Virus record (IMG/VR): IMGVR_UViG_3300021976_000002
Location: 1-55,163 of that record
Strand: one strand, 5' to 3'
Length of the DNA: 55,163 nucleotides
DNA from: a virus
Lineage: Duplodnaviria > Caudoviricetes
A program made the translations under genes and the position numbers. This document shows positions 4,597 to 47,229 of the stretch, piece after piece. The notes beneath the pieces are model-generated. The model did not search any database and had not been told where the DNA came from. It saw nothing but the letters and a program-made list of their open reading frames with translations. Each line of letters opens with the position of its first letter. Position 1 is the first letter of the stretch.

Positions 4597-7508
4597 TAGC
4601 GTCGACCTCCTCCCAAAGCCTTACCTGTTTGAATAACTCCGTCGATCAATTCGAATGCCACACGGCCGTCCTTAGTCACTAGCTGGACAGGTCGCCTATT
4701 CAACCCACGAGCCTCGTCGATCATGGTCCTCAGCATAGACTCGGACTGCGAGCTCAGTCCGATCGACTCAGGTCCGATCGTTCCTCCGTTAGCATAGCTT
4801 CCGGCAATCTGTCCTCGGTTGATAGCCTCGAGCAAAGACTTGTGACGCTTAGCCTGACTAGCTCGAACTACGTACTCGTCCCTAGACACCAGAGCCAAGA
4901 CATCGTCTGCTCGAGAGTGAGTACCATAGCGCACGCCTCCACCATAACGGAAGTCGTGTGCTACCATTCCACCGGCAGCATAGCCAGTGATCCATCCACC
5001 ACTAGCTCTCAGTCCTGGGTTGACGTACTGAGTACCATCCCAGATGCGGCCCGAGGTCCTGACGCTCACGGTAATAGTCGAGCTTCGGTTTCGTGCTGTA
5101 TTGTTCAGCTCACGCTCGGCAGCACCAATGCCAGTCACGTCGATGTTAGCATTGGCATTAACGTTGCGTCTGTCGAAGGCGGAGAGCTCTGTGTTGGCAG
5201 CTTCAACTTGAGCATCGGCAGCAACAGCACCAGGGGCAGACACAGTAGCTACATAGTCACCCGGAATGAGACCCAGAGTGTTAGCTAGAGTGTTAGCCTC
5301 TTCCTCGGAGTAGCCAGCAGCCACTGCGGCAGCTACGAATGATGCTCGGGCATTCTCCATAGCAACGGAAGCTTGATCAGCTGTGCCAGCATTCTCAAGA
5401 AGAGCTCCAGCAGTCTCAAGAGCCTGACTAGCCAAGTCGTTCAGGGCCTGTTCGTTCTCCCGACCCTTCTCGGTGTTGAATCCAATGGCTACACCAGTCT
5501 CATCGATCGCAGCTGTGGTGTCTGCCATCTGTGAAGCCAGGTCAAGTTGTGTCTGGCGAATGTCAATAGCCAGAAGACCAGCAGCCTGCATCTGGGCTAC
5601 AAGGTTAGCCAGCGCCTCAGCCTGTGTCTGGATGCCTTCAGTAGTAGCATCGAAGTCAGCACCGAGTTGAGCTTGCGCTGCGGCTGCTTCCTCTGTGGAG
5701 GTCGTAGTAATACCGAGCGCCCCGTTAGCAGCCTCAAGTGCGACTTGCTCTTCTTCGTACTTGCCCTTAGCCTCTTCGACGTGACCACTAAGCTCTGTGG
5801 TTCCACCGATGACTTCTTCAATGGCTGACAGCTTAGTACGAAGCGAAGCAGCGTGCTCGAGCTCGTCCTTACTAAGTGCACCAGGTCCTGCACCACCAGA
5901 GTACAACTCGTCCAGCTGTGCTTGGTACTCCTCCTGCTTGTCAACCAGCAACGCCATAGCATCCTGGTTACCAGCAGCAGCCTCAGTCACTGTGTCGAGA
6001 GCGACTCCAGCATCCTTGGCTTTGTCTGCCAACCCCTCTTGTGAGATCTGTGCCGCAAGAACTTGAGCAGCGTTCTCTCCGAAGGCACCAGAGTCAGCTT
6101 CAAGAGCAGCCGTGAAGTCTTCAACGATCTGTCGACCCTTAGCCTTCTCACTAAGGAAGGCGGACAGGATAATGCCAGCGCCAGCAATGGCTAGACCCAG
6201 TACACCACCAGCGATAGAGACAGCTCGCAACGACACACCCAAAGCCTGCGCTGCGATCCTAGCATCGTTGATGGCAACAGTAAGCCTACCCATTCCTGCA
6301 ACACCCAGTGCGACCAAGCCACCGCCACCGACTAGGGCCAGTGCGGCAGTTTGGATACCTGAGGGCAGGTCGTTAAAGCTATTTACTGCTTCTGTTACAT
6401 TCTGCACAACAGTCCGAAGGAAGTTGTTGCTACCCTCGGCCGAGTTGATGAACGCCGTCTCCAGGGCGCCGCCCAGAGCTTCGAGGTCACCCTTCAGGTT
6501 GTCCAGACGAAGAGCGGCCGTCTCAGCAGCGAAGCCTTGATCATCGACTGCGTTGGTCCACTTCTGGATACCACCCGTGCCCTGCTCCATGAGAATGTTA
6601 GCAGCACGAATAGCATCGCTACCGAAGATAGTAGCCAGCGCCTGGTCTCTCTGAGCCTGCGTAAGAGGTCCAAGCTTAGCCTGCAACTGACCAGCGAGGT
6701 CAGCCACACCGACAAAGCTACCCTCAGCATCGTACGCAGCAATGCCCAGGCGCTCCATTGTGTCTGCAGCTTCGCGGGACGGGTTCGCCATGCGTAGCAA
6801 CATCGTACGGAACGAAGTACCAGCATCGCTGCCCAACAGACCAGCAGCTGCGAACGCTGTCAGTGTGCCAACAGTCTCTTCAATGCTAATGCCGAACTGG
6901 TTCGACACCAGACCAGCCTGACGAAGAGCGAACGCCATGTCGGTCACATCACCCTGAGCCTTACCAGCACCAGCGGCTAGCAAGTCAGCAATGTGAGTAA
7001 CGTCCGAACCACTCAGACCGAACTGCGTCATAGCAGTCGCAGCGATCTCAGCAGCGTCGGCCACTTCCAAGTTACCAGCAGCAGCCAAGTCCAGCGAACC
7101 AGAAAGGCCACCGCCAAGGATGTCTGAAGTCGACACACCAGCCTTGGCTAGGTTCTCAATAGCTCCAGCTGCCTCAGTAGCAGAGAAGACAGTCGACTCG
7201 CCAGCATCGAGAGCGGCCTGGCGAAGCAAGCCCATCTCATCTGCAGAGGCATGCGTGGCTGCTTGAACAGCGGACATACCTTCATCGAAGTTGGCAAAGG
7301 CCCGAACAGCTAGACCAGCAGCACCAACCGCGGCGATACCAACAACGCCGAAGGCATTGCTGAGATCCCGAATGGATGCACTCGATCTACCTGACTGGGA
7401 CTCGACGTTCTGATTGAACGCGCCAACAGCGGAAGAGCCTTGACGGAGCCCTGCAGCTAGCCCGGAGACGTTAGCGACAAGCCGTACGGTTACGGTACGA
7501 TCCGCCAT
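4596..7508 (-). CDS. Tape measure protein
   Basis: 970 aa Ala/Gly-rich helical protein with a TP901-type TMP core (FSATEAA, GSDAGTSFRTML, IFGSDAIRAA). Lies after the tail chaperones. Confidence 0.95.
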   Translation of the reverse strand: MADRTVTVRLVANVSGLAAGLRQGSSAVGAFNQNVESQSGRSSASIRDLSNAFGVVGIAAVGAAGLAVRAFANFDEGMSAVQAATHASADEMGLLRQAALDAGESTVFSATEAAGAIENLAKAGVSTSDILGGGLSGSLDLAAAGNLEVADAAEIAATAMTQFGLSGSDVTHIADLLAAGAGKAQGDVTDMAFALRQAGLVSNQFGISIEETVGTLTAFAAAGLLGSDAGTSFRTMLLRMANPSREAADTMERLGIAAYDAEGSFVGVADLAGQLQAKLGPLTQAQRDQALATIFGSDAIRAANILMEQGTGGIQKWTNAVDDQGFAAETAALRLDNLKGDLEALGGALETAFINSAEGSNNFLRTVVQNVTEAVNSFNDLPSGIQTAALALVGGGGLVALGVAGMGRLTVAINDARIAAQALGVSLRAVSIAGGVLGLAIAGAGIILSAFLSEKAKGRQIVEDFTAALEADSGAFGENAAQVLAAQISQEGLADKAKDAGVALDTVTEAAAGNQDAMALLVDKQEEYQAQLDELYSGGAGPGALSKDELEHAASLRTKLSAIEEVIGGTTELSGHVEEAKGKYEEEQVALEAANGALGITTTSTEEAAAAQAQLGADFDATTEGIQTQAEALANLVAQMQAAGLLAIDIRQTQLDLASQMADTTAAIDETGVAIGFNTEKGRENEQALNDLASQALETAGALLENAGTADQASVAMENARASFVAAAVAAGYSEEEANTLANTLGLIPGDYVATVSAPGAVAADAQVEAANTELSAFDRRNVNANANIDVTGIGAAERELNNTARNRSSTITVSVRTSGRIWDGTQYVNPGLRASGGWITGYAAGGMVAHDFRYGGGVRYGTHSRADDVLALVSRDEYVVRASQAKRHKSLLEAINRGQIAGSYANGGTIGPESIGLSSQSESMLRTMIDEARGLNRRPVQLVTKDGRVAFELIDGVIQTGKALGGGRR

Positions 7509-15434: not shown

Positions 15435-15743
15435 TCAGGGATTCAGGTCTTCGCCAATGACAAGAGACAAGAAGCCCCGCTCTGGGAATGTCTGGATCAC
15501 ACTACCAACACGTGTCTCCAGTTCGAGAGACCAGAGTCCGACGTTCTCAGTCTCCTCAGCTGTGAAGGTAATAGTAGCTACCTTGCCAAGGACGGTATCG
15601 ACTGTCCTGTTAATGATAGGCGTGCCCTGCTTGCGTCCGATAACAATGTATGTGTCAGCAGCACTCGGCAGGTCGTCGGAGGCCATCCACTGCTTGGTAG
15701 GAGTGTCGCCCCTCTTGATGTATGTCTCTCGTGGGCTAGCCAT
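15435..15743 (-). CDS. Virion protein, BppU N-terminal-like
   Basis: IKRGDT...QTFP pattern; follows the GDPD protein. Confidence 0.55.
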   Translation of the reverse strand: MASPRETYIKRGDTPTKQWMASDDLPSAADTYIVIGRKQGTPIINRTVDTVLGKVATITFTAEETENVGLWSLELETRVGSVIQTFPERGFLSLVIGEDLNP

Positions 15744-17691
15744 TCGGTCCTCCGAAGTGAATTAGGTCGTCATCAGTATCCAAGACTGCTTCCAAGGTCG
15801 TAGCAGTCGAAATAGCCTCTAGTGACTTCGGTCCTGGAATCTCAGGTGTAGGATCAGAGCCTGAGATCGTGAAGGCAATGACAAGGTCGACTCCAGTAGT
15901 ACCAGATGGAATCGTAGGTGTTGGTGCCTCGCCCACTATGGAAGTGGACGTAACAGTCATCAGGCTAGTCTCACCCGTAGGAATGACTGCTGCAGGATCT
16001 TGTCCGGTGATAGAGAACGTGGTGACAGTATTGAGCTCGGCTGCACCCTGTGGTACTGATGGAGTAGGAGACTCGCCACTAACCTCGATGACTGTGACCG
16101 TATCGAGCTCTGCACTACCACTAGGAACGGTGGGCGTAGGAGATGCTCCCTCGACACTGATGCCGATAGTTGTTTCTGTCGCCACACTCCCAGTAGGAAC
16201 AGGAATGAGAGGGGCTTCCCCCTGAATGGAGAGGGCGGTAACAGTTTGCGTAATAGCTGAGCCAGAAGGAATGACCTGAGGGATGACACCGATGACCTTA
16301 CCAGTCATGATGCCATTGGCACCCTTACTGAAGGCCTCGGTGGCGTTGGCAGCGTTCAGGATCACATGTCCGAGAACAGGCTTACCATAGGCGAGCGTGT
16401 CGTCCCAGGCACCCTGAGTGGCGAGGTACTCCATACCAAGGTAGTCGTACGCTCCTTGGGTCTCAGCCATGTCAGGAAGGTTCTCTTCGTAGTAGTAGCC
16501 CCACGTGTGGTAGCCACGAGCCCGAACTAGGTCGGCTACTACGACAGTATCCCACCAATGCTTAGACACATACCGACTAGCACCAGCATAGGAGTCCATC
16601 AGGTCAAGCCACTCGTTGACGAACCAGTTGCCCCACTTGTTGTCCACGAAGATGATATGGGTATCACCATAGGCGTCGAGTAGATCAGTAAGCCTGACCA
16701 TCGGGTGATCGCCATCGGTCGTCCGCAGTGTCTCAAGGACTGCCCACGTCGTATCAGGGATGTTGTAGGTGTCTCCGAACATCCTCGTCGTAGTAGCATC
16801 GTGTGAGATCACCCAGACACCGTCAATGCTCCGATGGATCGAAGCTTCTAGTGCCTTAGCTCCATAGGCTACTGCAGCATCAAAGGCCGCCATCGTGTTC
16901 TCAACATAGTCAACCGAGCCACCACGGTGTGCCACATACACTGGCTCGTCCGCCATGAACACTTCGACCGGAGTAGGAGGGTGTTCCTCTTCAACAGTCA
17001 ATGCTAGGCTCAGAGCGAACTCAGCATTCTCTTCCGGAACAACTGAGCTAGCAGTCTTCAGAGCCAGGATCGCGGCAGAGGCCACCGTAGTCGAAGCAGA
17101 GGCTGTCGCGGTCATCGAGTGCGAGCCAGCTGTCACGTTACCAGCGTCTGCTCCCATGAGTGACACAGAGCCACCAGCTTGAATCTGACGACGAAGGTTG
17201 TGTGCTGTAGTGTAGGTAGATCCGTTACGGTCGGACCATCCTGCCACTAGCATACGAATGTCAGCTACAGAGATGCTCGCCGTAGTGCGAACGGTATTCC
17301 CTAGCGCACCAGAGTATGCTGCCTCTCCAGACACTACTGGCTCGGCTAGATCAACTCCGGAGTAGCAAGCAATGAAGGCTGCAGCATTGCCACCACTAGG
17401 GGCGGTGTAGTCCCAAACGAAGTCCGCCTCGTCACCTGTGTAGGGCTTACCGTAGACATTGATCCGCGTACTAGTTCCGGAGCCAGGGTCGTTACCGCCG
17501 ACATGAAGTACCCAACCATCGGGAGGAGTAACGACTGGGTCGTTGTTAGCACCTGCTGCCTGCACAGTGACAAAGGCCAGCATGTACTGACCAACAGCAG
17601 CCTCAACCGGTGGCAATGGATTGACTGAGGTAGCTGTATTGTTGGTCGGAGTGATAACAGCTACACCGGCTGCGACGAATGCAATGGCCAT
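15736..17691 (-). CDS. Virion protein with glycerophosphodiester phosphodiesterase (GDPD) domain and six 24-aa repeats
   Basis: VAHRGG...ENTMAAF...DGVWVISHD motif. C-terminal repeats of roughly P-x-G...T...I-x-G-x-x-P. Confidence 0.8.
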   Translation of the reverse strand: MAIAFVAAGVAVITPTNNTATSVNPLPPVEAAVGQYMLAFVTVQAAGANNDPVVTPPDGWVLHVGGNDPGSGTSTRINVYGKPYTGDEADFVWDYTAPSGGNAAAFIACYSGVDLAEPVVSGEAAYSGALGNTVRTTASISVADIRMLVAGWSDRNGSTYTTAHNLRRQIQAGGSVSLMGADAGNVTAGSHSMTATASASTTVASAAILALKTASSVVPEENAEFALSLALTVEEEHPPTPVEVFMADEPVYVAHRGGSVDYVENTMAAFDAAVAYGAKALEASIHRSIDGVWVISHDATTTRMFGDTYNIPDTTWAVLETLRTTDGDHPMVRLTDLLDAYGDTHIIFVDNKWGNWFVNEWLDLMDSYAGASRYVSKHWWDTVVVADLVRARGYHTWGYYYEENLPDMAETQGAYDYLGMEYLATQGAWDDTLAYGKPVLGHVILNAANATEAFSKGANGIMTGKVIGVIPQVIPSGSAITQTVTALSIQGEAPLIPVPTGSVATETTIGISVEGASPTPTVPSGSAELDTVTVIEVSGESPTPSVPQGAAELNTVTTFSITGQDPAAVIPTGETSLMTVTSTSIVGEAPTPTIPSGTTGVDLVIAFTISGSDPTPEIPGPKSLEAISTATTLEAVLDTDDDLIHFGGPNG

Positions 17692-27222: not shown

Positions 27223-27576
27223 GTGATGACTGACTCCTGGGAACGATGGACGGCTCTGTCACCGATCACTCGTAGGTTCCTCATGGACAACCACTCAACT
27301 GAGATCCGACTAGTCGGTGAGCTAGCACACCTGTCAGGCTTCCCGATTGAGAACTGGATCGAGGTGTACAACGAGTACGGGCACCGAAGGGAGTTCGAGG
27401 ACCTAGCCCAGTGGTGCGTCGAGACAGGTGGGAGCCCTGGGATGTTAAAGAGCCTGTTCGTAGCGATCGAGCCTCCGCACACTAGGACTCGACCGACGCT
27501 GCTTCAGATGTTGTACGAGCTAGTCGGTGAGATGGTAGGTGCCCTGATGGATAGGTTGTCGTCTAGAAGATCTTGA
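27223..27576 (+). CDS. Hypothetical protein
   Basis: ORF track; operon packing. Confidence 0.55.
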   Translation: MMTDSWERWTALSPITRRFLMDNHSTEIRLVGELAHLSGFPIENWIEVYNEYGHRREFEDLAQWCVETGGSPGMLKSLFVAIEPPHTRTRPTLLQMLYELVGEMVGALMDRLSSRRS

Positions 27577-27665
27577 ATTGCCGGGTTGCCCTGGCGTTGC
27601 GACTGCTATATATTTGTATCAAGAGCAGGGGAGCGAGTCCCCAGCAAGGAGCAAAGGAGAAGGTC

Positions 27666-28037
27666 ATGCGCAACGCCAAGGGGCAGTTCGTCAAGAAGAC
27701 GGCCGAGACCACTCTCGACCACCTCGCCGACGAGCTCCTGAAGGACAAGACCGCCAAGCACCTCCAGATCGTGGCCCGCTACAACGAGCAGAAGGCCAAC
27801 GAGGTTGTCAACCCGATCGTCCTCGCCGCGCTGCTTGAGGTCCGGCCCCAGATGATCTACAACTACATCCGCAAGGGCCGCTTCACCGACCTGAGCGAAG
27901 ACGGACACGGTGCGGACTTCAACAACACCCAGAAGCGTGTCATCCGCTTCGACGAGGCGAACACCTTCGCCCAGCAGTACGTCGGGCGCCAGGAAGTCAA
28001 GGCGGCCAAGATTGAGGCCGAGCTCGCTGGGGCGTGA
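27666..28037 (+). CDS. HTH DNA-binding protein (paralog family, copy 1)
   Basis: VNPIVLAALLEVRPQMIYNYIRKG; AAGGAG RBS; strong codon bias. Confidence 0.75.
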   Translation: MRNAKGQFVKKTAETTLDHLADELLKDKTAKHLQIVARYNEQKANEVVNPIVLAALLEVRPQMIYNYIRKGRFTDLSEDGHGADFNNTQKRVIRFDEANTFAQQYVGRQEVKAAKIEAELAGA

Positions 28038-28056
28038 GAAGTACAAGTGTACCCAG

Positions 28057-28062
28057 TATAAT
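28057..28062 (+). promoter_or_regulatory. -10 box TATAAT upstream of the RNA locus
   Basis: Consensus hexamer 8 nt before the first tRNA-like element. Confidence 0.6.
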
Positions 28063-28070
28063 TGAATATA

Positions 28071-28153
28071 GGGTCCTGAGCGTGAGGCGACGCGTCCTTA
28101 AACGGCCATAACCAGGTCATTGGGAAGAGTAGGTTCAACTCCTACAGGATCCA
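28071..28153 (+). ncRNA. tRNA-like RNA 1 with elongated anticodon arm
   Basis: Acceptor GGGTCCT/AGGATCC plus A; D-stem GCGT/ACGC; T-arm GTAGG-TTCAACT-CCTAC; non-canonical long middle arm. Confidence 0.7.
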
Positions 28154-28195
28154 CGGCGACAGGAGAGGCCTGTTGCAAGGCAAAAGGAGAAAGAA

Positions 28196-28387
28196 ATGTT
28201 CAAGCGCACACTCGCCACGCTGGCGGCCACGGTCGTGCTCGGTGTTGCTGGCGGAGGGATCGCTCAGGCGACCTCGCCCGTCTACCAGCCCAAGCTCACC
28301 GTTGCCACCCCGCCCAAGAACTGCGACGACAACCAGCCGCTTCCCCCGTACTCGTCTTTCCGAGTCGGCGGAGCGACGCGTTCCTGA
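28196..28387 (+). CDS. Small secreted peptide precursor (63 aa)
   Basis: AAGGAG RBS; MFKRTLATLAATVVLGVAGGGIAQA signal peptide with an AxA cleavage site. Confidence 0.65.
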   Translation: MFKRTLATLAATVVLGVAGGGIAQATSPVYQPKLTVATPPKNCDDNQPLPPYSSFRVGGATRS

Positions 28388-28486
28388 AAGGGAACTCAAG
28401 ACCGCTAGCCCAGCTAGCGCGTGAGGAGGGGGAGGGGGAGAAGTCACCCAAGTGATCATCCCCCCTCCACCGATACAACTACACAT

Positions 28487-28646
28487 GGGCGCGTAGCACT
28501 TTGGTAGTGCAGCCTGAGCCTCGATGGTTGAACGGGTTGATCGCCGTTACCAGGTCGAAACTTATGTGCATGAAACCCTTACTAGTAGGGGAGTAATGCA
28601 TACTAAGGGCTTCAGGAAGAACGTGGTTCGATCCCACGCGTGTCCA
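28487..28646 (+). ncRNA. tRNA-like RNA 2 with an approximately 87-nt two-hairpin domain replacing the anticodon loop
   Basis: Acceptor GGGCGCG/CGTGTCC plus A; D-arm GCACT-TTGGT-AGTGC; CCTGAGCC/GGCTTCAGG stem; T-arm CGTGG-TTCGATC-CCACG. Confidence 0.75.
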
Positions 28647-28746
28647 CGGTTGAACTCGGACTCGTAATCCGGTGTGTCAACAAGTGGCTGGCAGGCTGCG
28701 TGCGCTGGTGCCTGAGACGGCTGCCACTGTCTCAGGGCCAGCGTAT

Positions 28747-28822
28747 GGACTGGTAGCTCAGAGGTCAGAGCAAGGGACTCTTAATCCCTGGGTCGTGGGT
28801 TCGACTCCCACTCAGTCCACCA
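28747..28822 (+). tRNA. tRNA-Lys(CUU)
   Basis: Canonical 76-nt cloverleaf: AGGGA-CTCTTAA-TCCCT anticodon arm, GTGGG-TTCGACT-CCCAC T-arm, encoded CCA. Confidence 0.95.
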
Positions 28823-28946
28823 GGGGATAGGATAGGCTGATTACCTATCTGAAGGGAGCTAATCACTCCTAGAGGTTACGGGCACTGGGTTCGTCGCTTC
28901 GTCCCCGTCTACGTTAACAGGATGCGACTAACAAAGGAGAGAGGCA

Positions 28947-31129: not shown

Positions 31130-31594
31130 ATGGCACGGAACCGCAACGCCGAGGTCGACGTTCCCGACTCGAGCGAGACCGACGCTCCGGAGTCGACCGA
31201 GGCGAAGGCCCCCAAGGGCCCGAAGCGTGGCGAGCTCCCCGAGGGCTTCGTCACCCCGATCGGCCTGGCCAAGGAACTCACCACGCGTGGGCTCCACACC
31301 AACCGCGATGGTGAGACCGTCGAGGTCAAGCCGCAGATGGTGTACTCGTACATCAAGAACGCTCCTGCGGACCACCCCTTCCCGCTTCAGTCGGTGGAGG
31401 ACAGCAACGGTACCGCGCGCCAGGTCGTGAGCCTGGAAGAGGGCCTTGCATGGTGGGTCGAGAAGACCGAGCGTGCGCAGGCTCGTCGGGCGAACGCCGC
31501 TGAGAAGCGGACCGCCAAGGAGCAGCGCGCCGCTGAGCGGACCGCCAAGGCTGAGGCTGAGGGCGACACCTCGGAGGTCACCGAGGCTGAGTGA
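31130..31594 (+). CDS. HTH DNA-binding protein (paralog family, copy 2)
   Basis: VTPIGLAKEL...VKPQMVYSYIKN. Has its own promoter and terminator; Ala/Lys/Glu-rich tail. Confidence 0.75.
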   Translation: MARNRNAEVDVPDSSETDAPESTEAKAPKGPKRGELPEGFVTPIGLAKELTTRGLHTNRDGETVEVKPQMVYSYIKNAPADHPFPLQSVEDSNGTARQVVSLEEGLAWWVEKTERAQARRANAAEKRTAKEQRAAERTAKAEAEGDTSEVTEAE

Positions 31595-41281: not shown

Positions 41282-43480
41282 TTGACAGGCATTGGTTCGC
41301 CGGAGGAGAACAAGAGGCTCCGTGGAGTCTTCTTCGACTCCATTTTCGGCAAGCACAATGGCTGGGTATGTCTTGCCTTTCTACCCGCAGCTGACCGTAA
41401 GAAGTTCCGAGAAGAGTATTACCGTTACCCCGAAGAGACGTCTCAGATGCTGGACGCTGTTGAGGCTAACCTCTCGGGCAACAATATCTATTTCTGTCCT
41501 CAGCTCCTGAGTGAGAAGCGTAGACAAAAGCAATACGTTTCATCCACTCCGAACCTCTGGTCGGACTTGGACTTCTGTGAACCAGCTAACCTCCTTGTCG
41601 AGCCGACAGTAACTATAGAGTCCTCCCCAGATAGGTACCAAGCGTACTGGGTGCTCGACAAGGTCGTTGATGTAGACGATGCGGAAGATCTTAGCAAGCG
41701 CATTGCCTACAAGCATGCTGATCAGGGTGCGGATAGAACAGGCTGGGACCTTACCCAGCTATTGCGAGTTCCACTTACGTACAACTACAAGTACAACAAG
41801 CTAGCCCCTCCGGTAGTGAAGACTATCAACTTCAACCGGACACGATATAGAATAAGCGACTTCGAAGAATACCCCAAGGTCGAAGGGTATGCCTACGTCG
41901 ATGTTGAGATGCCTGACATATCAGAGTATCCCAACGCAGATGAATTGCTCGACAGACGTAGGCTTCAACTCAACCCCAGGGTCTGGCATTCGTATAGTGA
42001 AGAGCCTGCAGAGGACTGGAGCGGTGTCCTTTGGAACCTCCACCTGATGCTACTCGAAGCTGGCTACGATCGCAATGAGACATTCATCATTGTACGAGAA
42101 GCCAAGTGCAACAAGTATGTTAGAGATGGCAAGTCTGAAAAGCTCCTGTGGAAAGAAGTTGTTAGAGCCGATACTAAGAATGAGTTGAACCTAAGACTCA
42201 TTGCTGGCATTGGTGACAACGAAGATTCACAACCACTTCTTTCCGACAAGGAAAGGTCTAAGCTCGAACGAGACCCAGACACCTTCATTGAACGGTTCCA
42301 ACAGTGGGCGCGGTCCCTAGGTGATGCAGCACCACAGTACCACCAGGCCGGAGCTTTCGTGGCACTGTCATCTCTACTCGCAGGTGCGGTACGATTGCCA
42401 ACATCATTCGGTACGATCATCCCCAACCTGTGGTTTATGATCCTGGCAGACACAACTCTTACCAGGAAGTCGACTGCGATGGACATTGCTATCGACATGG
42501 TGATGGAGATCGACCCGGACTCAATGTTGGCTACTGATGGATCTCTAGAGGGTTTGTTGACAGCATTGTCAATGAGGCCCGGCAAGCCATCTATCTTCCT
42601 GCGAGACGAGTTCTCTGGACTGCTTGAGATGATCACTAAGAAGGACTACTACTCAGGCATGCCGGAGCTACTCACTAAGCTGTACGATGGTAAGATGCAG
42701 AAGAGGATCTTGCGCAAGGAGACCATTGAAGTCCGAGAGCCCATCCTGATCTTCTTCGCAGGTGGTATCAAGGACAAGATCACTGGACTGCTAACGCATG
42801 AGCACGTCAGCTCTGGCTTCATGCCTAGGTTCGTATTCATCACAGCTGAATCGGACATCAACAGGCTGAAGCCGATCGGCCCCCCAACGGCAACCACCAC
42901 AGGGTCTGGGGATGCCATCCGCAATGAGTTGATGGACATCTTCTCGTACTACCGTAAGCCAATACACATGACAGTTCAGAAGACAGCAGCCGTGCTAGAC
43001 GAGCCTATGAAGTTCGAGGCAGAGCTAACTGGGGATGCTTGGGTCAGGTACAACATCCTGGAATCGGATATGCTGTCCGCTGGGCTCGCTATGGAGAAGC
43101 CCGACATGATGACTCCTACCTACGACAGGCTCAGCAAGTCCATTCTCAAGGCTGCCATTCTTCTTTCGGCAGCACGGCAGCGTAGTGAGAAGTTGGTCGT
43201 GGAAGAGATCGATATCATTCGGGCTATTAGCTACGGAGAGCAATGGCGCACGCATGCCAATGAGGTCATGATCAATGTTGGGAAGGGTACCTACGAGAGG
43301 CAACTGGATACTATTGTCCGAGCCATTGAGAGGACACCAGGTGTTACTCGTTCGAAAATCATGCAGTGGTACCATCTCAGCTCGCGCTCTGCATCCGAAA
43401 TGTTCGACACGCTAGAGCAGCGCGGTGCTATCAAACGCATTCGCGCTGGCAGAACCGAAACGTTCCACTCACTACGCTAG
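41282..43480 (+). CDS. Primase-helicase (RepB/AEP-like primase plus DUF3987-like P-loop domain)
   Basis: LWSDLD, ESSPDRYQAYW, LLRVP; TRKST, LRDEF, LTKLYDG and SGFMPRF. TTG start after GGGGAG. Confidence 0.85.
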   Translation: MTGIGSPEENKRLRGVFFDSIFGKHNGWVCLAFLPAADRKKFREEYYRYPEETSQMLDAVEANLSGNNIYFCPQLLSEKRRQKQYVSSTPNLWSDLDFCEPANLLVEPTVTIESSPDRYQAYWVLDKVVDVDDAEDLSKRIAYKHADQGADRTGWDLTQLLRVPLTYNYKYNKLAPPVVKTINFNRTRYRISDFEEYPKVEGYAYVDVEMPDISEYPNADELLDRRRLQLNPRVWHSYSEEPAEDWSGVLWNLHLMLLEAGYDRNETFIIVREAKCNKYVRDGKSEKLLWKEVVRADTKNELNLRLIAGIGDNEDSQPLLSDKERSKLERDPDTFIERFQQWARSLGDAAPQYHQAGAFVALSSLLAGAVRLPTSFGTIIPNLWFMILADTTLTRKSTAMDIAIDMVMEIDPDSMLATDGSLEGLLTALSMRPGKPSIFLRDEFSGLLEMITKKDYYSGMPELLTKLYDGKMQKRILRKETIEVREPILIFFAGGIKDKITGLLTHEHVSSGFMPRFVFITAESDINRLKPIGPPTATTTGSGDAIRNELMDIFSYYRKPIHMTVQKTAAVLDEPMKFEAELTGDAWVRYNILESDMLSAGLAMEKPDMMTPTYDRLSKSILKAAILLSAARQRSEKLVVEEIDIIRAISYGEQWRTHANEVMINVGKGTYERQLDTIVRAIERTPGVTRSKIMQWYHLSSRSASEMFDTLEQRGAIKRIRAGRTETFHSLR

Positions 43481-43491
43481 GAGTATTCCCC

Positions 43492-44256
43492 ATGACTGTA
43501 CCTCAGAAGCTTGTCGTCGTTCTCTCTGGAGGACTGGACAGTACTACTCTCCTGTACGATGCGGTGGCTCAAGGCGCCGATGTTGTTCGGGCCGTCAGCT
43601 TCAACTACGGACAGAGGCACAAGAAGGAATTGGACTACGCTAAGCAGTCCGCAGAGAAGCTCAGCATCAAGCACACCGTTATCGACCTGTGGTCGTCGGG
43701 TCTGACTGAGGCGTTTTCCAATTCGGAAAGCTCGCTGGTCACGGACACCGATGTGCCTGAGGGACACTACGGCGAGGAGTCGATGAAGGCTACTGTCGTT
43801 CCCAACCGCAACATGATCATGCTCAGCATCGCAGGTGGCATTGCCGTAGCTGATGGTGCCAATGCCGTCGCTACTGGTGTGCATGCTGGCGACCACTTCA
43901 TTTACCCTGACTGCCGACCTGCATTCATTAGCACAGCCGCCTCGGCCTTGGCTCTAGGCAACGATGGCTTCGGCTCTCTCGACGTGGCTCCCATCTTCAC
44001 GCCGTACATCTTCCGGAGCAAGAACGATATTGCCTTCCGGGCTATCGAGTTGGACGTTCCTCTTCACGAGACTTGGTCTTGCTACAACGGACGAGAGAAC
44101 CATTGCGGGCGATGCGGCACTTGTGTCGAGCGCTTGGAGTCCATTGACTGGGCGGTCAACAAGTTCCTGGACGAGTACAATGTTGAGGTCGAGGATCACA
44201 CCATGTACGAGGACGACGCGTACTGGCGAGAGGCTCTCAAGAGGGAGACGGTCTAA
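43492..44256 (+). CDS. queC: 7-cyano-7-deazaguanine synthase
   Basis: LSGGLDST, FNYGQRH, VPNRN, YPDCR and TWSCY...HCGRCGTC motifs. Confidence 0.95.
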   Translation: MTVPQKLVVVLSGGLDSTTLLYDAVAQGADVVRAVSFNYGQRHKKELDYAKQSAEKLSIKHTVIDLWSSGLTEAFSNSESSLVTDTDVPEGHYGEESMKATVVPNRNMIMLSIAGGIAVADGANAVATGVHAGDHFIYPDCRPAFISTAASALALGNDGFGSLDVAPIFTPYIFRSKNDIAFRAIELDVPLHETWSCYNGRENHCGRCGTCVERLESIDWAVNKFLDEYNVEVEDHTMYEDDAYWREALKRETV

Positions 44257-44769
44257 ATGATCGTAGCTGTCAAGCACAACTTCGAGACGGCACATCGTCT
44301 ACCTTTCCTCGAAGGCAAGTGCCAGAGCATCCACGGTCACTCGTGGTGGGTGGAGTGGCAATTCGAGAAGCCAGTTGACTCCAACGGTCTGACTGTTGAG
44401 TACGGAACGATGAAGCGTCACCTCCGGGATTGGGTTGACACCTATCTCGACCACGGAACAATGCTTGGCATTAACGATCCTTTGTGGCAAGCATTCAAGG
44501 ATGATATTGGCTGTAAGCTCTTCACCTTCGGAGCCTCTAGCAAAGAGTTCATGAGCACTGCTGACCATAAGTGGCCTACAGTAGAAGCTGTCGCTCAGCT
44601 TCTAGCAAATGTAGGCGAAGGGCTTATTGGAGAAGCTCAGATCGTCAGAGTCGAAGTTCAAGAGACGCATGTCAACAAAGCTATCTGGACACCAACTGAG
44701 AACGACATCGAGTATCAGAGGAGAGTTCGTGAACCCGCTCAAGACACTTTCGGGCAACGATCGAAGTGA
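44257..44769 (+). CDS. queD: 6-carboxy-5,6,7,8-tetrahydropterin synthase
   Basis: FETAHRL, CQSIHGHSW, LDH, PTVE and VQET motifs. Confidence 0.93.
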   Translation: MIVAVKHNFETAHRLPFLEGKCQSIHGHSWWVEWQFEKPVDSNGLTVEYGTMKRHLRDWVDTYLDHGTMLGINDPLWQAFKDDIGCKLFTFGASSKEFMSTADHKWPTVEAVAQLLANVGEGLIGEAQIVRVEVQETHVNKAIWTPTENDIEYQRRVREPAQDTFGQRSK

Positions 44770-44920
44770 AGAGCCTGACTCGTTGTACCAACTGTACACG
44801 ATGCATGGGCTAAGGGACGGCAAGCATGTCTATGCTGGAACGGTTACTCGTAGCGACCGTGACCGACGCCGCGCAAAGAATCGGGTGGCTAAGAAGTCCA
44901 GGAAGAGGAACCGTGGCTGA
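44729..44920 (+). CDS. Small basic protein
   Basis: GAGGAG RBS before GTG; HVYAGTV...RRRAKNRVAKKSRKRNR. Confidence 0.5.
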   Translation: MNPLKTLSGNDRSEEPDSLYQLYTMHGLRDGKHVYAGTVTRSDRDRRRAKNRVAKKSRKRNRG

Positions 44921-45290
44921 CCCATACCTCGAGGGTAAGGTCTCCGACTCTATCTCTGGAGGCCTCGGAGTGACTGACACCGAGTACACTCTCGATGCCA
45001 ATGATCCGTTCGAGTCGAAGCTGATCGAGATGGTCAAGCTCAATCGAATGAAGCGAGCTGACTACGCTGGCGACGAAGATCCTTGGCAGAACTTTGTTGA
45101 CAGTGCTATTCAAGTCAACGATACACCAGGCAAGTCTGTCGAGACGTTGATCGCTACCAAGCAGGCTCGACTTCGGCAGCTTCTGTTCACTGGTCGCGCA
45201 CCCAAGAATGAAGCCGTGCGCGACACAGTCCTCGACCGTGCAGTGTATTCTGTCATTGCCCTTTCGATCTACGACCGAGGAGACTACTGA
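44913..45290 (+). CDS. Nucleotide-modification-associated domain 1 (Nmad1/DUF1599-like) protein
   Basis: KRADYA...NF...KQARL...EAVRDTVLDRAVY pattern. Confidence 0.7.
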   Translation: MADPYLEGKVSDSISGGLGVTDTEYTLDANDPFESKLIEMVKLNRMKRADYAGDEDPWQNFVDSAIQVNDTPGKSVETLIATKQARLRQLLFTGRAPKNEAVRDTVLDRAVYSVIALSIYDRGDY

Positions 45291-45535
45291 TGAGTGAGCC
45301 CAACGAACCGCTTGACCCCGAAGAGGGTGTGACTCCAGAAGGGGTTATCACCGACAATGACTTCGCATTCGGATCTAACGGAATAACTCTAGCTCCTCTC
45401 ATTCCAGTCCGTATCGAGACTAAGCAGCAGGCCTATCGAGCCGGCATCTGGATCAAGCTTATGGGTGAGTTTCTTCCTGACGAGCCAGTCGCCTCGACCT
45501 GGGAAGAGATCCAGAACGCGATTGAGGGGACCTGA
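45290..45535 (+). CDS. Acidic hypothetical protein
   Basis: Translationally coupled on both sides. Confidence 0.6.
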   Translation: MSEPNEPLDPEEGVTPEGVITDNDFAFGSNGITLAPLIPVRIETKQQAYRAGIWIKLMGEFLPDEPVASTWEEIQNAIEGT

Positions 45536-46242
45536 TGGTTGTACGAGTGAGTGAGGTCTACCTGAGTGTGCAGGGTGAAGGGCCTCGAGCTGGTCAGCGT
45601 ACGGTGTTCGTCCGATTCGGTGGATGCAACCTTCGTTGCCCCGGATGGCCCTGTGACACTCAGCACGCGATTGATCCGGCTCTTTATCGTAACGAGTGGA
45701 TCAAGACTGAGCCTGCAGACCTCGTTGAACAGATCGACAAGGTAGCAGAGAAGACCCTGAGTACTGCGATCTGCTTCACGGGCGGTGAGCCATTCCTTCA
45801 GCACCACCCCGACCTGGCTGAGGTCATGGATGGCTTGATGGTTCGAGGCTACGGAACGTATGAGTGCTTCAGCAATGGGACTATCTTGTACCCTGAATGG
45901 GCTACTCGTGAGTTGTCCTTTATCATGGACTGGAAGCTCCCAGGCTCTGGAGAGAACCATCTCAACCCAGTACGCCTGAAGAACTTGTCGAACCTTAAGG
46001 TCAAGGATGCTGTCAAGTTCGTTATCAAGGATCGAAATGACTTCGAGGTAGCCAAGGAACTGTACCTTAGGTACATCGAACGGATCCCGAATGCGTGGCG
46101 CCCTCGTACCTACTACGGTGTGGTGTGGGGAGCTATGGAGAACTCCGAACTCATCGAATGGGTTCTGGACGCCAAGCTTCCATGGTGGATAAATGTGCAA
46201 GTGCATAATTATATTTGGTCCAGGGATCAGAGAGGCATTTGA
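45535..46242 (+). CDS. queE: 7-carboxy-7-deazaguanine synthase (radical SAM)
   Basis: SVQGEG, FVRFGGCNLRC.GWPCDT, TGGEPF, KLPGSG and QVH motifs. Confidence 0.95.
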   Translation: MVVRVSEVYLSVQGEGPRAGQRTVFVRFGGCNLRCPGWPCDTQHAIDPALYRNEWIKTEPADLVEQIDKVAEKTLSTAICFTGGEPFLQHHPDLAEVMDGLMVRGYGTYECFSNGTILYPEWATRELSFIMDWKLPGSGENHLNPVRLKNLSNLKVKDAVKFVIKDRNDFEVAKELYLRYIERIPNAWRPRTYYGVVWGAMENSELIEWVLDAKLPWWINVQVHNYIWSRDQRGI

Positions 46243-46243
46243 T

Positions 46244-46822
46244 ATGCTCGAGCAGGACGCTTTGTTCGGTACGTACACTCCTGAGGGGCATGCACTCGAA
46301 ATCTTTTCCTCTTTGGAAGCTTGGGAAAGAACGAACGAGAACCACAGGGAGGATACACCAGTACGTTTCATCAATGCCCTCCGCCAGCTGACTGAACGGG
46401 AGGAGTTCAACTTCACTACGTTCGACAACGATGGCATCGACGAGATGATCACGCTTGGGCCAATTCCCTTCTACACGTTGTGTGCCCATCATGTGGTTCC
46501 CTTCTACGGCAACGCCTGGGTTGGCTACGTGCCAGATGGACGCATCGCCGGCCTGAGCAAGTTCGCTCGCGCTGTCAAGTATGTGGCGAAGGGCTTCTGG
46601 GTTCAGGAGGAGCTCACTCGAGAGCTGGCCGACTTCCTCGAGCACAAGCTGGAGCCCAAGGGCGTAGCCATCGTGATGAAGGCTGAGCACATGTGCATGG
46701 CAATGCGAGGCGTGCAGCAGCCAGGTGTGATCACTACGACATCGACCATGCGGGGTGTGTTCGCAGACCACTCTCGCACAGCGAAGGCAGAGTTCCTTCA
46801 CAATGTGAATGGAGCACACTGA
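46244..46822 (+). CDS. folE: GTP cyclohydrolase I
   Basis: DTPVR, LCAHHVVPF, GLSKFAR, VQE and AEHMCMAMRGV motifs. Confidence 0.95.
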   Translation: MLEQDALFGTYTPEGHALEIFSSLEAWERTNENHREDTPVRFINALRQLTEREEFNFTTFDNDGIDEMITLGPIPFYTLCAHHVVPFYGNAWVGYVPDGRIAGLSKFARAVKYVAKGFWVQEELTRELADFLEHKLEPKGVAIVMKAEHMCMAMRGVQQPGVITTTSTMRGVFADHSRTAKAEFLHNVNGAH

Positions 46823-47229
46823 TGAGCTACGCAGCTGACAGCAATGGCGAACGTGTTTACTTCGAACGGGAACTAAGTGTAACAGACTCCCGCGAACAGC
46901 TTTATCACCTGGCCAAGCAGTGCCTCGAGGACAGTGAACGTTGGTTCGGAGACAGTGGTAAGGTGCATGACCTTCCTCATCATGGACTAGGCCTTGGAGG
47001 TGAGACAGGCGAAGTCCTAGAGATCATTAAGAAGATCGATCGCGGCTCTTTAGATCTCAGCGATCCGAACGTTGAAGAAGCATTGGCTTTGGAACTGACG
47101 GACGTTCTAATCTATGTTCTGAACCTCGCAGCCATTCTTAACATTGACCTGCAACAAACTTACAACCAGAAGCGTAGCATCAATGAAGACCGCTTCATGA
47201 GACAACGACGGGAACGGGAGAGTCGATGA
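46822..47229 (+). CDS. MazG-like nucleotide pyrophosphohydrolase
   Basis: GLGGETGEVLEIIKK...LELTDVLIY: paired ExxE/ExxD motifs. Confidence 0.85.
   Translation: MSYAADSNGERVYFERELSVTDSREQLYHLAKQCLEDSERWFGDSGKVHDLPHHGLGLGGETGEVLEIIKKIDRGSLDLSDPNVEEALALELTDVLIYVLNLAAILNIDLQQTYNQKRSINEDRFMRQRRERESR

What the first reader, a model, noticed from the sequence alone, without database searches (positions are those of the whole stretch)
28071..28646. Two tRNA-like RNAs with alanine identity (G3·U70, A73) but replaced anticodon arms
Seen: both elements have a 7-bp acceptor stem, a D-arm and a canonical T-arm. Both show G1-C72, G2-C71, G3·U70 and discriminator A despite different sequences, and both share GGAAGA before the T-arm and end in TCCACGG. 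Element 1 has an elongated bulged middle arm. Element 2 has two long hairpins (28521-28607) in place of the anticodon loop, one with a GAAA/GAGTA loop-E-like internal loop and a palindromic ACTAGT loop. Established: AlaRS recognises G3·U70 and ignores the anticodon, as with tmRNA. However, tmRNA lacks a D-stem and has a longer tag-coding domain, and no tag ORF is evident here. Inference: these may be an unrecognised class of alanylatable, non-decoding RNAs. Possible roles are ribosome/EF-Tu/RelA decoys, non-ribosomal Ala donors, or RNase P/Z processing signals.
Basis: partly seen in the sequence, partly recalled or inferred. Interest (0 to 1): 0.85.

Follow-up and report, generated by a model that had tools for sequence, protein, structure and literature searches.

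The report
Two non-decoding tRNA look-alikes in phage
A soil phage carries, beside one real lysine tRNA, two RNA genes that keep the upper half of a tRNA but cannot read a codon; they most likely tell host tRNA-trimming enzymes where to cut the early transcript, and may also be loaded with alanine.

Summary
E1 (28071-28153) and E2 (28487-28646) each have a perfect 7-bp acceptor stem with G3.U70 and A73, a D arm and a canonical T arm. E1's anticodon arm is over-long. In E2 a 104-nt three-way junction replaces it. Such shapes are expected 0.12 times per shuffled window.

ARAGORN (default) and Rfam, including tRNA and tmRNA models, do not recognise either element. No look-alike was found in GenBank phages, IMG/VR, the metagenome or genome collections, or 151 sampled actinobacterial genomes.

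The window is a complete 55-kb siphophage. Its relatives carry different unannotated tRNA-shaped modules at the same gene borders. Only the acceptor/T-arm half recurs, and 0 of 6 modules have G3.U70.

My best reading (0.45) is tRNA-derived shells cut by RNase P and a 3' tRNA nuclease. This would excise a small secreted-protein mRNA and tRNA-Lys and release stable tRNA mimics. Alanine charging is plausible but untested and not conserved.

The kind is not unrecognised. Phage T4 species 1/2 RNAs, the TLD-only tmRNA of phage DS6A and plant mitochondrial t-elements are precedents. I rate it a new variant of a known kind. There are no expression data.

The parts
28034..28062 (+). Promoter-like site GTGAGA-17 nt-TATAAT. 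The -10 hexamer ends 8 nt before G1 of E1, so transcription could start at or next to the 5' end of E1.
   Evidence: 10 of 12 matches; 14 sites found in the 10-kb region against 3.9 expected; sequence
28071..28153 (+). E1, an 83-nt tRNA-shaped element. Acceptor 28071-77/28146-52 (G3.U70), D arm 28080-93, over-long bulged arm 28095-28125, T arm 28129-45, A73 at 28153, then CGG (no CCA encoded).
   Evidence: No default ARAGORN or Rfam gathering hit. Best Rfam hit is tRNA-Sec at 17.9 bits, E=1.5.
28156..28176 (+). 8-bp hairpin GCGACAGG-AGAGG-CCUGUUGC between E1 and the ribosome-binding site of the small ORF.
   Evidence: read from the sequence
28196..28387 (+). Small ORF of 63 aa. It has a strong AAAGGAG ribosome-binding site and an N-terminal signal-peptide-like stretch, and is bracketed by E1 and E2. 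No family match.
   Evidence: GC3 0.80; no PHROG or Pfam hit
28395..28471 (+). Two stable hairpins after the small ORF. No U tract follows them.
   Evidence: z = -5.31; 0 of 200 shuffles as stable
28487..28646 (+). E2, a 160-nt tRNA-shaped element. Acceptor 28487-93/28639-45 (G3.U70), D arm 28496-28510, three-way-junction insert 28513-28616 in place of the anticodon stem-loop, T arm 28622-38, A73 at 28646, then CGG.
   Evidence: No default ARAGORN or Rfam hit, even at E<=10.
28700..28746 (+). Very stable hairpin that abuts the 5' end of tRNA-Lys.
   Evidence: the 28660-28746 fold has z = -3.48
28747..28822 (+). Genuine tRNA-Lys(CUU) with encoded CCA. It is the only canonical tRNA in the genome.
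   Evidence: 70.1 bits
27573..28037 (+). Helix-turn-helix-like early gene (HTH1). In three related phages a tRNA or tRNA-shaped module follows this gene or its paralogue directly.

Best explanation
E1 and E2 are tRNA-derived, non-decoding 'tRNA shells' built into an early phage transcript.

Shown:
- Each keeps the parts that tRNA-maturation enzymes read: the stacked acceptor and T arms and a D arm with GG.
- Neither has a usable anticodon stem-loop.

Inferred mechanism:
- Host RNase P cuts at G1.
- A 3' tRNA endonuclease such as RNase Z cuts after A73. Neither element encodes CCA, unlike the neighbouring tRNA-Lys.
- The CCA-adding enzyme then completes the 3' end.
- Cuts at E1, E2 and tRNA-Lys would divide the transcript into five pieces: E1; a hairpin-protected monocistronic mRNA for the 63-aa secreted-type protein; E2; tRNA-Lys; and the downstream mRNA.

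The released E1 and E2 would be stable tRNA mimics. Because they carry G3.U70, A73 and G2-C71 they could be charged by AlaRS. In this reading charging is a by-product or a secondary role, not the conserved function.
For: (1) Both elements have an intact upper half and no decoding arm.

(2) They are placed at gene borders on the coding strand. E1 starts 33 nt after the HTH1 stop and ends 42 nt before the small ORF. E2 starts 99 nt after that ORF and ends 100 nt before tRNA-Lys. Stable hairpins sit inside each predicted cut product.

(3) Relatives carry other tRNA-shaped modules at the same borders.
- G011 is a complete, colinear phage (helicase 65%, primase 62%, DNA polymerase 61% identity). 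It has a 93-nt unannotated tRNA-shaped element 18 nt after its HTH1 stop, and a T-arm module before HTH2.
- G001 has an ordinary tRNA after HTH1.
- L280 has three T-arm modules in about 900 nt of non-coding DNA after HTH2. One of them has a counterpart in L283 with the same T arm and compensatory acceptor changes.
- Only the acceptor/T-arm half recurs. That half is what RNase P, RNase Z and the CCA-adding enzyme need.

(4) G3.U70 is absent from all 6 of these modules.

(5) There is precedent. Plant mitochondrial t-elements with the same GGTTCRANYCC T-arm motif direct RNase P/Z cuts at mRNA ends and give stable t-element RNAs (PMC1920247, abstract and passages).

(6) Between E1 and E2, 8 of 16 stem pairs differ on both sides and none is broken. 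The unpaired AAGA before the T arm and the ACGG tail are identical. This fits selection for shape plus a few single-stranded contacts.
Against: - There is no RNA evidence at all. No RNA run holds this DNA.
- A processing signal needs only a minihelix. E1 and E2 keep full D arms, and E2 carries an elaborate, very stable three-way junction with a loop-E-like internal loop. That hints at a job of its own.
- The promoter-like site places the transcript start at the 5' end of E1, so RNase P may not be needed there.
- Both elements carry the complete alanine set, which processing does not require.
- The modules in relatives are positional analogues only. They share no sequence with E1 or E2, so their lack of G3.U70 does not prove that it is unimportant here.
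- The host and its RNase Z status are unknown.
Confidence: 0.45

Rival explanations
1. The main role is in trans. E1 and E2 are alanine-accepting, non-decoding tRNA mimics. Once matured and CCA-tailed, they would be charged by AlaRS and act as decoys or sinks for factors that read the acceptor end or tRNA elbow. Candidates are AlaRS, EF-Tu, SmpB, or tRNA-end-targeting defence toxins. Alternatively they would donate alanine outside translation.
For: - Both carry G3.U70, A73, G1-C72 and G2-C71 although their stems differ in sequence.
- That G3.U70 minihelices are charged by AlaRS is established knowledge, which I recall and did not check here.
- The E1 model's 15 best matches among fetched viral loci include 8 tRNA-Ala genes. 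tRNA-Ala makes up 25 of the 159 ARAGORN tRNAs in those loci, so E1 looks tRNA-Ala-derived. The caveat is that those loci were chosen by a 3' pattern that E1 shares.
- E2's structured insert (z = -3.76) suggests a binding platform.
- Precedent: the DS6A TLD-only tmRNA. PMC4131195 says a similar molecule strongly inhibits tmRNA, perhaps by titrating SmpB.
Against: - G3.U70 is found in 0 of 6 tRNA-shaped modules of related phages.
- E1 and E2 may share it by common descent, which would make it one event rather than two.
- CCA is not encoded.
- E2's best model matches are not enriched for tRNA-Ala: 3 of 15.
- No partner enzyme gene lies nearby.
- Nothing shows expression or charging.
Confidence: 0.25
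2. E1 and E2 are decaying tRNA genes: remnants of a tRNA cassette whose anticodon arms were disrupted. They would have no present function.
For: - They lie in a hypervariable segment. Nothing between 28.04 and 31.0 kb has a counterpart in the colinear relative G011.
- No homologue exists anywhere searched.
- tRNA-shaped modules in relatives are diverse and partly degenerate.
Against: - All 16 core stem pairs are intact in both elements, and the T loops are canonical.
- Decay would not spare exactly the stems while remodelling only the middle.
- The E2 insert is itself highly ordered (28515-28615 has z = -2.97).
- A 55-kb phage has little room for 240 nt of junk.
Confidence: 0.15
3. They are tag-less tmRNA heads (TLD-only tmRNA, as in mycobacteriophage DS6A) that titrate SmpB and block trans-translation.
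For: - G3.U70 and A73, a T arm and no decoding arm.
- E1 is 83 nt, the same length as the DS6A element.
- E1 has 14 nt between the acceptor and the next helix, ending in GGCGAC. DS6A has ...GGUCGAC in the same place.
Against: - The DS6A element hits Rfam tmRNA at 34.7 bits, E = 1.3e-12.
- E1 and E2 give no tmRNA match at E<=10. E1's best match in the tRNA clan is tRNA-Sec at 17.9 bits.
- Both have a D stem, which the tmRNA tRNA-like domain lacks.
- Default ARAGORN finds no tmRNA.
Confidence: 0.07
4. E2, and perhaps E1, is a decoding tRNA gene interrupted by an intron that is removed to give an ordinary tRNA.
For: - ARAGORN in intron mode calls E2 as tRNA-Ser(ACU) with an 84-nt intron.
- At an 80% threshold it calls E1 as tRNA-Val(AAC) with an 8-nt intron.
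- Other viral contigs hold tRNA genes with 63-82 nt in place of the anticodon loop.
Against: - The same intron-mode call appears in 146 of 300 E2 frames whose middle was shuffled, so it carries no weight.
- The modelled intron lies between loop positions 32 and 33, leaves G32 and A34, needs a shifted stem with no nucleotide 26, and leaves a 10-nt unpaired variable region.
- With the stable stem CCUGA/UCAGG, no single excision gives U33 (sequence).
- No intron or ribozyme family matches at E<=10.
- From memory: 84 nt is too short for a group I intron, and bacteria lack the archaeal splicing endonuclease.
Confidence: 0.05

Closest known systems
Phage T4 stable RNAs species 1 and 2 (rnaC, rnaD) in the T4 tRNA region
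   Same: - Small non-decoding RNAs encoded beside phage tRNA genes.
- rnaC (139 nt) ends in a canonical T arm (CCGGG-UUCGAAU-CCCGG) closed by an acceptor-like terminal stem, with two long hairpins in the middle. This resembles E2.
- Their roles are still unknown (PMC3014915, passage).
- No Rfam family covers them.
   Different: - No sequence similarity.
- rnaC has no D arm, and its acceptor stem has mismatches and no G3.U70.
- Different phage type and host.
- RNase P processing and a CCA end of the T4 RNAs are recalled from memory, not checked here.
TLD-only (tag-less) tmRNA of mycobacteriophage DS6A
   Same: An actinobacteriophage-encoded, 83-nt, anticodon-less element with G3.U70, A73 and a T arm. 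It is proposed to act as a decoy for SmpB (PMC4131195, Table 2 and Results passage; PMC11915505, passage; fold).
   Different: DS6A matches the tmRNA profile at 34.7 bits and has no D stem. E1 and E2 do not match that profile and do have D stems. E2 is twice as long and has a three-way junction.
t-elements of plant mitochondria, and tRNA-like 3'-end marks such as mascRNA
   Same: Non-canonical cloverleaves with a GGTTCRANYCC T arm at mRNA borders. RNase P and RNase Z cut them, which sets mRNA ends and releases a small stable tRNA-like RNA that can receive C/CCA (PMC1920247).
   Different: - Organellar or eukaryotic, not phage.
- No alanine identity has been reported for them.
- Processing of E1 and E2 is not shown.
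- mascRNA is cited from memory and from the weak Rfam row only.
tRNA-Ala acceptor minihelices and tRNA-Ala itself
   Same: G3.U70, A73 and G1-C72/G2-C71 in a 7-bp acceptor stem stacked on a T arm. E1's model finds viral tRNA-Ala genes as 8 of its 15 best matches.
   Different: - No UGC/GGC/CGC anticodon arm.
- No encoded CCA.
- The D loops lack A14.
- That AlaRS charges minihelices is recalled knowledge, not tested here.
Bacterial Y RNA YrlA
   Same: A tRNA-like module with T and D arms inside a non-coding RNA. Some occur in mycobacteriophages (PMC4201824, seen as a search listing only).
   Different: In YrlA the RNA ends form the Ro-binding stem and the acceptor-like stem is closed (recalled). 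In E1 and E2 the ends are the acceptor stem. There is no Rfam match, and no Ro-like gene among the ORFs scanned.

Membership tests
Canonical tRNA (Rfam RF00005 / ARAGORN) | 7-bp acceptor stem, D arm, and a 5-bp T stem with a T-loop of the form UUCRANN | tested here: met
Canonical tRNA (Rfam RF00005 / ARAGORN) | 5-bp anticodon stem with a 7-nt loop (U33, purine 37) at the standard distance | tested here: not met
   E1 has a 31-nt bulged arm whose loop AUAACCA has C37. E2 has a 104-nt junction.
Canonical tRNA (Rfam RF00005 / ARAGORN) | Profile score at or above the gathering score (29 bits), or a default ARAGORN call | tested here: not met
   The neighbouring tRNA-Lys scores 70.1 bits.
Intron-containing tRNA | Removal of one insert leaves a canonical anticodon stem-loop | tested here: inconclusive
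   ARAGORN -i gives a strained model for E2, but 146 of 300 shuffled-middle controls are also called.
Intron-containing tRNA | A recognisable splicing device (group I fold or bulge-helix-bulge) | tested here: not met
   No intron or ribozyme family matches at E<=10. The fold shows a continuous helix at the proposed junctions.
tmRNA / TLD-only tmRNA | G3.U70, A73 and a T arm | tested here: met
tmRNA / TLD-only tmRNA | Match to the tmRNA tRNA-like-domain profile (D region without a stem, conserved flanks) | tested here: not met
   The DS6A control scores 34.7 bits. E1 and E2 give no tmRNA row at E<=10. Both have D stems.
tmRNA / TLD-only tmRNA | Tag reading frame (full tmRNA only) | tested here: not met
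   Default ARAGORN finds no tmRNA. A permuted-tmRNA call appears only at the 80% threshold and spans unrelated sequence.
Y RNA / YrlA | Rfam match, RNA ends forming the Ro-binding stem, and a neighbouring rsr gene | tested here: not met
   No Rfam match. The ends form the acceptor stem. No Ro-like hit among the 52 and 35 ORFs scanned. Not every ORF was scanned.
Phage tRNA-region stable RNAs (T4 species 1/2 type; an informal group) | Encoded beside phage tRNA genes on the same strand, with a terminal acceptor-like stem, a T arm and a non-tRNA middle | tested here: met
   E2 ends 100 nt before tRNA-Lys.
Phage tRNA-region stable RNAs (T4 species 1/2 type; an informal group) | Made as discrete stable RNAs processed by tRNA enzymes | not testable with these tools
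   No RNA run holds the stretch.
tRNA-like processing signals (t-elements) | A tRNA-like fold with a GGTTCRANYCC T arm at the borders of coding regions | tested here: met
   Positional analogues occur in relatives.
tRNA-like processing signals (t-elements) | Transcript ends coincide with the ends of the element | not testable with these tools
   No RNA data.
AlaRS substrates | G3.U70 with A73 and G2-C71 in an acceptor helix stacked on a T arm | tested here: met
AlaRS substrates | A 3'-CCA end and actual charging | not testable with these tools
   CCA is not encoded (the tail is ACGG). It would have to be added after 3' trimming.

The most novel reading that the evidence does not exclude
E1 and E2 are the founding pair of a phage-encoded class of alanine-charged, non-decoding tRNA mimics. 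The acceptor end would be kept chargeable on purpose. The remodelled middle, E2's loop-E-type three-way junction, would dock a host or phage protein. The RNAs would then divert AlaRS, EF-Tu or SmpB, absorb defence enzymes that attack tRNA acceptor ends, or deliver alanine outside the ribosome. Their tRNA shape would also serve for excision from the transcript.
Probability: 0.2. Interest if true: 0.8.

Novelty: new variant of a known kind. Interest (0 to 1): 0.5.

Why it matters
Phages have been known for about fifty years to encode tRNA-like stable RNAs whose roles are still unknown. T4 species 1 and 2 are the classic case.

This locus adds a clean example in a complete genome. It has two full cloverleaf shells with alanine identity and remodelled anticodon arms, set around a small ORF and a real tRNA. 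A clade of related soil phages carries other unannotated tRNA-shaped modules at the same gene borders.

Standard annotation with ARAGORN and Rfam misses all of them. Phage genomes may therefore hold many such elements.

The locus would also allow a direct test of two ideas that are usually confounded. One is tRNA-type punctuation of phage transcripts. The other is chargeable tRNA decoys.

Tried and rejected
- **RNA evidence.** The look-up of sequencing runs listed no RNA holder, only two DNA runs of one soil sample that may be the source of this DNA. Laying those contigs showed only the source contig over E1 and E2, with no variants. Nothing can be said on expression or population covariation.
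- **BLASTN against GenBank phages.** The 1-kb region matched only through tRNA-Lys. E2 alone gave no match at E<=5. E1 alone gave only 19-24-nt T-arm matches at E about 3.
- **Pattern scans.**
  - GGAAGA..GGTTCRAYNCC..TCCACGG gave 0 hits in IMG/VR.
  - A looser pattern gave 69 metagenome and 52 genome loci. All were coding repeats, ordinary tRNAs, tmRNA ends or chance.
Most were normal tRNAs; a few had swollen middles, and none was related to E1 or E2.
- **Single-sequence covariance models.** Models of E1 (R1) and E2 (R2) were searched over 100 sources totalling 450 kb, including all relatives. They hit only ordinary tRNAs at 38 bits or less. R1 does not find E2, and R2 does not find E1, at E<=1. 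In 151 sampled genomes of the class that holds Actinomyces there were 0 matches at E<=1e-6 for either model. That is a sample, so absence is not shown.
- **Relatives found through the DNA polymerase** (G002-G005) and through the portal protein were fragments without the region.
- **Other family assignments.** tmRNA, YrlA and intron-tRNA were rejected as set out in Membership tests. The type II (long variable arm) tRNA reading of E1 was tried by hand and found no pairing.
- **Shared 8-mer.** ACCAGGTC occurs in both middles. It occurs 6 times in the window against 2.3 expected, and 3 of 100 shuffles reach 6. I regard this as suggestive only.
- **Literature.** Searches for a described class of phage tRNAs with a replaced anticodon arm found none. 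The library lacks most subscription journals.
- **Not reachable.** The contig that encodes the closest HTH1 homologue (P0002, 76% identity, 2155 bp) could not be fetched.
Full report
**What the window is.** The window is a whole IMG/VR virus record of 55,163 bp with direct terminal repeats.
- The minus-strand half encodes a siphovirus structural module: terminase, portal, protease/capsid, tape measure and minor tail proteins.
- The plus-strand half encodes small early ORFs, a replication module, and a QueC/QueD/QueE/GTP-cyclohydrolase set.
- The portal is at most 48% identical to those of Brevibacterium, Arthrobacter and Glutamicibacter phages.
- The DNA polymerase is under 30% identical to anything in GenBank phages.
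- This is therefore an orphan phage, probably of an actinobacterium. The only sequencing runs that hold it are two DNA runs of one soil sample.

**The observation.**
- E1 (28071-28153) and E2 (28487-28646) each have a perfect 7-bp acceptor stem with G1-C72, G2-C71, G3.U70 and A73.
- Each has a D arm with GG in its loop and a T arm with a canonical UUCRANN loop.
- The middle of E1 is a 31-nt arm: 4 bp, a 5x3 internal loop, 4 bp and the loop AUAACCA.
- The middle of E2 is a 104-nt three-way junction. Its second hairpin has a GAAA/AGUA internal loop. The likeness of that loop to loop E or the sarcin-ricin motif is from memory.

This is more than chance.
- A descriptor for acceptor + D stem + T arm finds only E1, E2 and tRNA-Lys in the window. 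50 shuffles gave a mean of 0.12 hits.
- The motif GGTTCRANYCC is exact only at these three sites.
- E2 is far more stable than shuffles (z = -3.76).
- Comparing E1 with E2, 8 of the 16 acceptor, D and T pairs differ on both sides and none is broken. The unpaired AAGA before the T arm and the tail ACGG are identical.

**What they are not.**
- Default ARAGORN and Rfam at gathering thresholds see only tRNA-Lys(CUU) at 28747-28822.
- At E<=10, E1's best match is tRNA-Sec at 17.9 bits. E2 has no tRNA-clan match.
- They are not tmRNA heads. The TLD-only tmRNA of mycobacteriophage DS6A, listed in PMC4131195, scores 34.7 bits (E = 1.3e-12) against Rfam tmRNA under the same kind of search. E1 and E2 score nothing, and both have D stems.
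- They are not convincingly intron-bearing tRNAs. ARAGORN in intron mode models E2 as tRNA-Ser(ACU) with an 84-nt intron between loop positions 32 and 33. It makes such a call for 146 of 300 copies of the E2 frame with a shuffled middle.
- No intron or ribozyme family matches. With the stable stem CCUGA/UCAGG, no single excision restores U33.
- E1 is not called at the default threshold.

**Search for relatives of the RNAs.**
- Nothing resembling E1 or E2 turned up by BLASTN in GenBank phages.
- Three pattern scans of IMG/VR, the metagenomes and the species genomes found nothing related.
- Single-sequence covariance models, run over 450 kb of fetched viral loci, hit only ordinary tRNAs at 38 bits or less.
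- Neither model matched any of 151 sampled actinobacterial genomes at E<=1e-6.
- Neither model finds the other element at E<=1.
- 8 of the E1 model's 15 best matches are viral tRNA-Ala genes, against 25 tRNA-Ala among 159 tRNAs in those loci. For E2 the figure is 3 of 15. This hints that E1 descends from a tRNA-Ala gene. The caveat is that those loci were selected by a 3' pattern that E1 shares.
- Covariation in true orthologues could therefore not be tested.

**Context in related phages.** This was the most informative result. The gene upstream of E1 (27573-28037) is a helix-turn-helix-like protein with 26 homologues, one of which carries Pfam HTH_17. It has a paralogue at 31130-31594.
- Through this gene and the helicase I reached several related IMG/VR phages.
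- G011 is complete (50,064 bp) and colinear with the window from the HTH gene to the polymerase. Identities are 54-73% in the main replication genes. Nothing between the two HTH paralogues is shared, so the 28.0-31.0 kb segment is hypervariable.
- In G011 a 93-nt tRNA-shaped element starts 18 nt after the HTH stop. It has a 7-bp acceptor, a T arm, A73 then CGC, and A3-U70. ARAGORN and Rfam do not see it. A T-arm/minihelix module precedes its second HTH gene.
- In G001 the same position holds an ordinary tRNA.
- L280 has about 900 nt without ORFs after its HTH2 gene. That stretch holds three T-arm modules and gives no Rfam match at E<=5.
- One L280 module recurs in L283 with the identical T arm and compensatory acceptor changes. 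L282 has one more module.
- Canonical T arms in these loci occur almost only in this neighbourhood.
- Across the clade the acceptor/T-arm half recurs. The middles differ or are missing, and none of the 6 modules has G3.U70.

**Reading.**
- The half that is conserved is the half that RNase P, RNase Z and the CCA-adding enzyme recognise. The positions at ORF borders match what is documented for t-elements of plant mitochondria, which share the same T-arm motif, are cut by RNase P/Z, and yield stable t-element RNAs with added C/CCA (PMC1920247).
- In the window, cuts at E1, E2 and tRNA-Lys would free a monocistronic mRNA for the 63-aa signal-peptide-bearing ORF. A hairpin would lie at each end of that mRNA (28156-28176 and 28395-28471). 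The same cuts would free tRNA-Lys.
- I therefore put tRNA-type punctuation that also yields stable tRNA mimics first, at 0.45.
- Against it: a promoter-like site ends 8 nt before E1. Full D arms and E2's elaborate junction exceed what processing needs. No RNA data exist.

**The alanine question.**
- Both elements carry the complete acceptor-stem identity set, so charging after CCA addition is a fair prediction from established AlaRS biology (recalled).
- However, CCA is not encoded, G3.U70 is not kept in positional analogues, and the two copies may share it by descent.
- The ACGG tail is ordinary. In an unrelated phage array nearly all tRNA genes end in N73+CG.
- I give the trans-acting alanine-decoy reading 0.25, decayed tRNA genes 0.15, a DS6A-like SmpB sponge 0.07 and an intron-bearing tRNA 0.05.

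**Comparison with what is known.** The nearest described things are these.
- The T4 species 1 and 2 RNAs. They are annotated in the T4 tRNA cluster. rnaC folds into a T arm, a terminal stem and two long hairpins, and their roles are unknown (PMC3014915).
- The DS6A TLD-only tmRNA.
- Plant mitochondrial t-elements.

E1 and E2 differ from all three. They keep a full cloverleaf frame with a D arm and alanine identity while the anticodon arm is remodelled. No Rfam family covers them.

Earlier notes of this scan list several other phage tRNA mimics with G3:U70. These are unchecked leads and may reflect what first readers tend to flag. I verified only the DS6A and T4 pointers.

**Verdict.** This is a real feature and a new variant of a known but poorly understood kind. 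Interest is moderate, because everything rests on one genome without RNA data.

Noticed in passing
window 43366-47229: A gene set for 7-deazaguanine synthesis (QueC-like, QueD-like, QueE-like, GTP cyclohydrolase, MazG-like) lies beside the replication genes. This suggests modified DNA. G011 has the same set.
   Followed up: no
window 28196-28387: A 63-aa ORF with a signal-peptide-like N-terminus and a strong ribosome-binding site is bracketed exactly by the two tRNA-shaped elements. It has no family match.
   Followed up: partly
window 27573-28037 and 31130-31594: Two paralogous HTH-like genes share the motif PQM(I/V)Y(N/S)YI and flank a segment (28.04-31.0 kb) that shares no gene with the colinear relative G011. 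This is a hypervariable cassette zone, with tRNA-shaped modules at its edges in several phages.
   Followed up: partly
window 28700-28746 and 28823-28930: A very stable hairpin abuts the 5' end of tRNA-Lys. A three-hairpin structure follows its 3' end, before the next ORF.
   Followed up: no
window 28111-28118 and 28549-28556: Both middles contain U(A/U)ACCAGGUC. The 8-mer occurs 6 times in the window against 2.3 expected.
   Followed up: partly
L280:6396-7320: About 900 nt without ORFs after the HTH2 gene of a related phage. The stretch holds three T-arm modules, at 6465, 6968 and 7078; the third has an encoded ACCA. There is no ARAGORN call and no Rfam match at E<=5. One module recurs in L283 (5992-6064) with compensatory acceptor changes.
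   Followed up: partly
L203:76-205, 294-423, 531-657: Three tandem tRNA genes of a GC-rich viral contig each carry a similar 35-58-nt insert next to the anticodon loop, with a shared core ...GCCCG-loop-CGGGCCGCUGAGAGACGGUUA. This looks like a family of small tRNA inserts. Rfam tRNA matches them only through local ends.
   Followed up: partly
L170:271-422 (G006) and L268:5074-5260 (G007): Two unrelated large phages carry 152-nt and 187-nt tRNA-shaped genes inside tRNA arrays. They have a canonical D arm and share insert motifs (GGAUGCACC, GGGAAGCGCGUUU). One has G3.U70 and the other G3-C70. Default ARAGORN and Rfam miss both.
   Followed up: partly
L268 (G007:23000-29500): In a phage array with 42 Rfam tRNA matches, nearly every tRNA gene ends in discriminator + CG(C/G/T) rather than CCA. 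This may be a shared 3'-processing context.
   Followed up: no
window 15736-17691: A 651-aa protein in the structural module combines a tail-fibre-like part with a glycerophosphodiester phosphodiesterase domain (Pfam GDPD, 59 bits). It is possibly a teichoic-acid-degrading tail enzyme.
   Followed up: no
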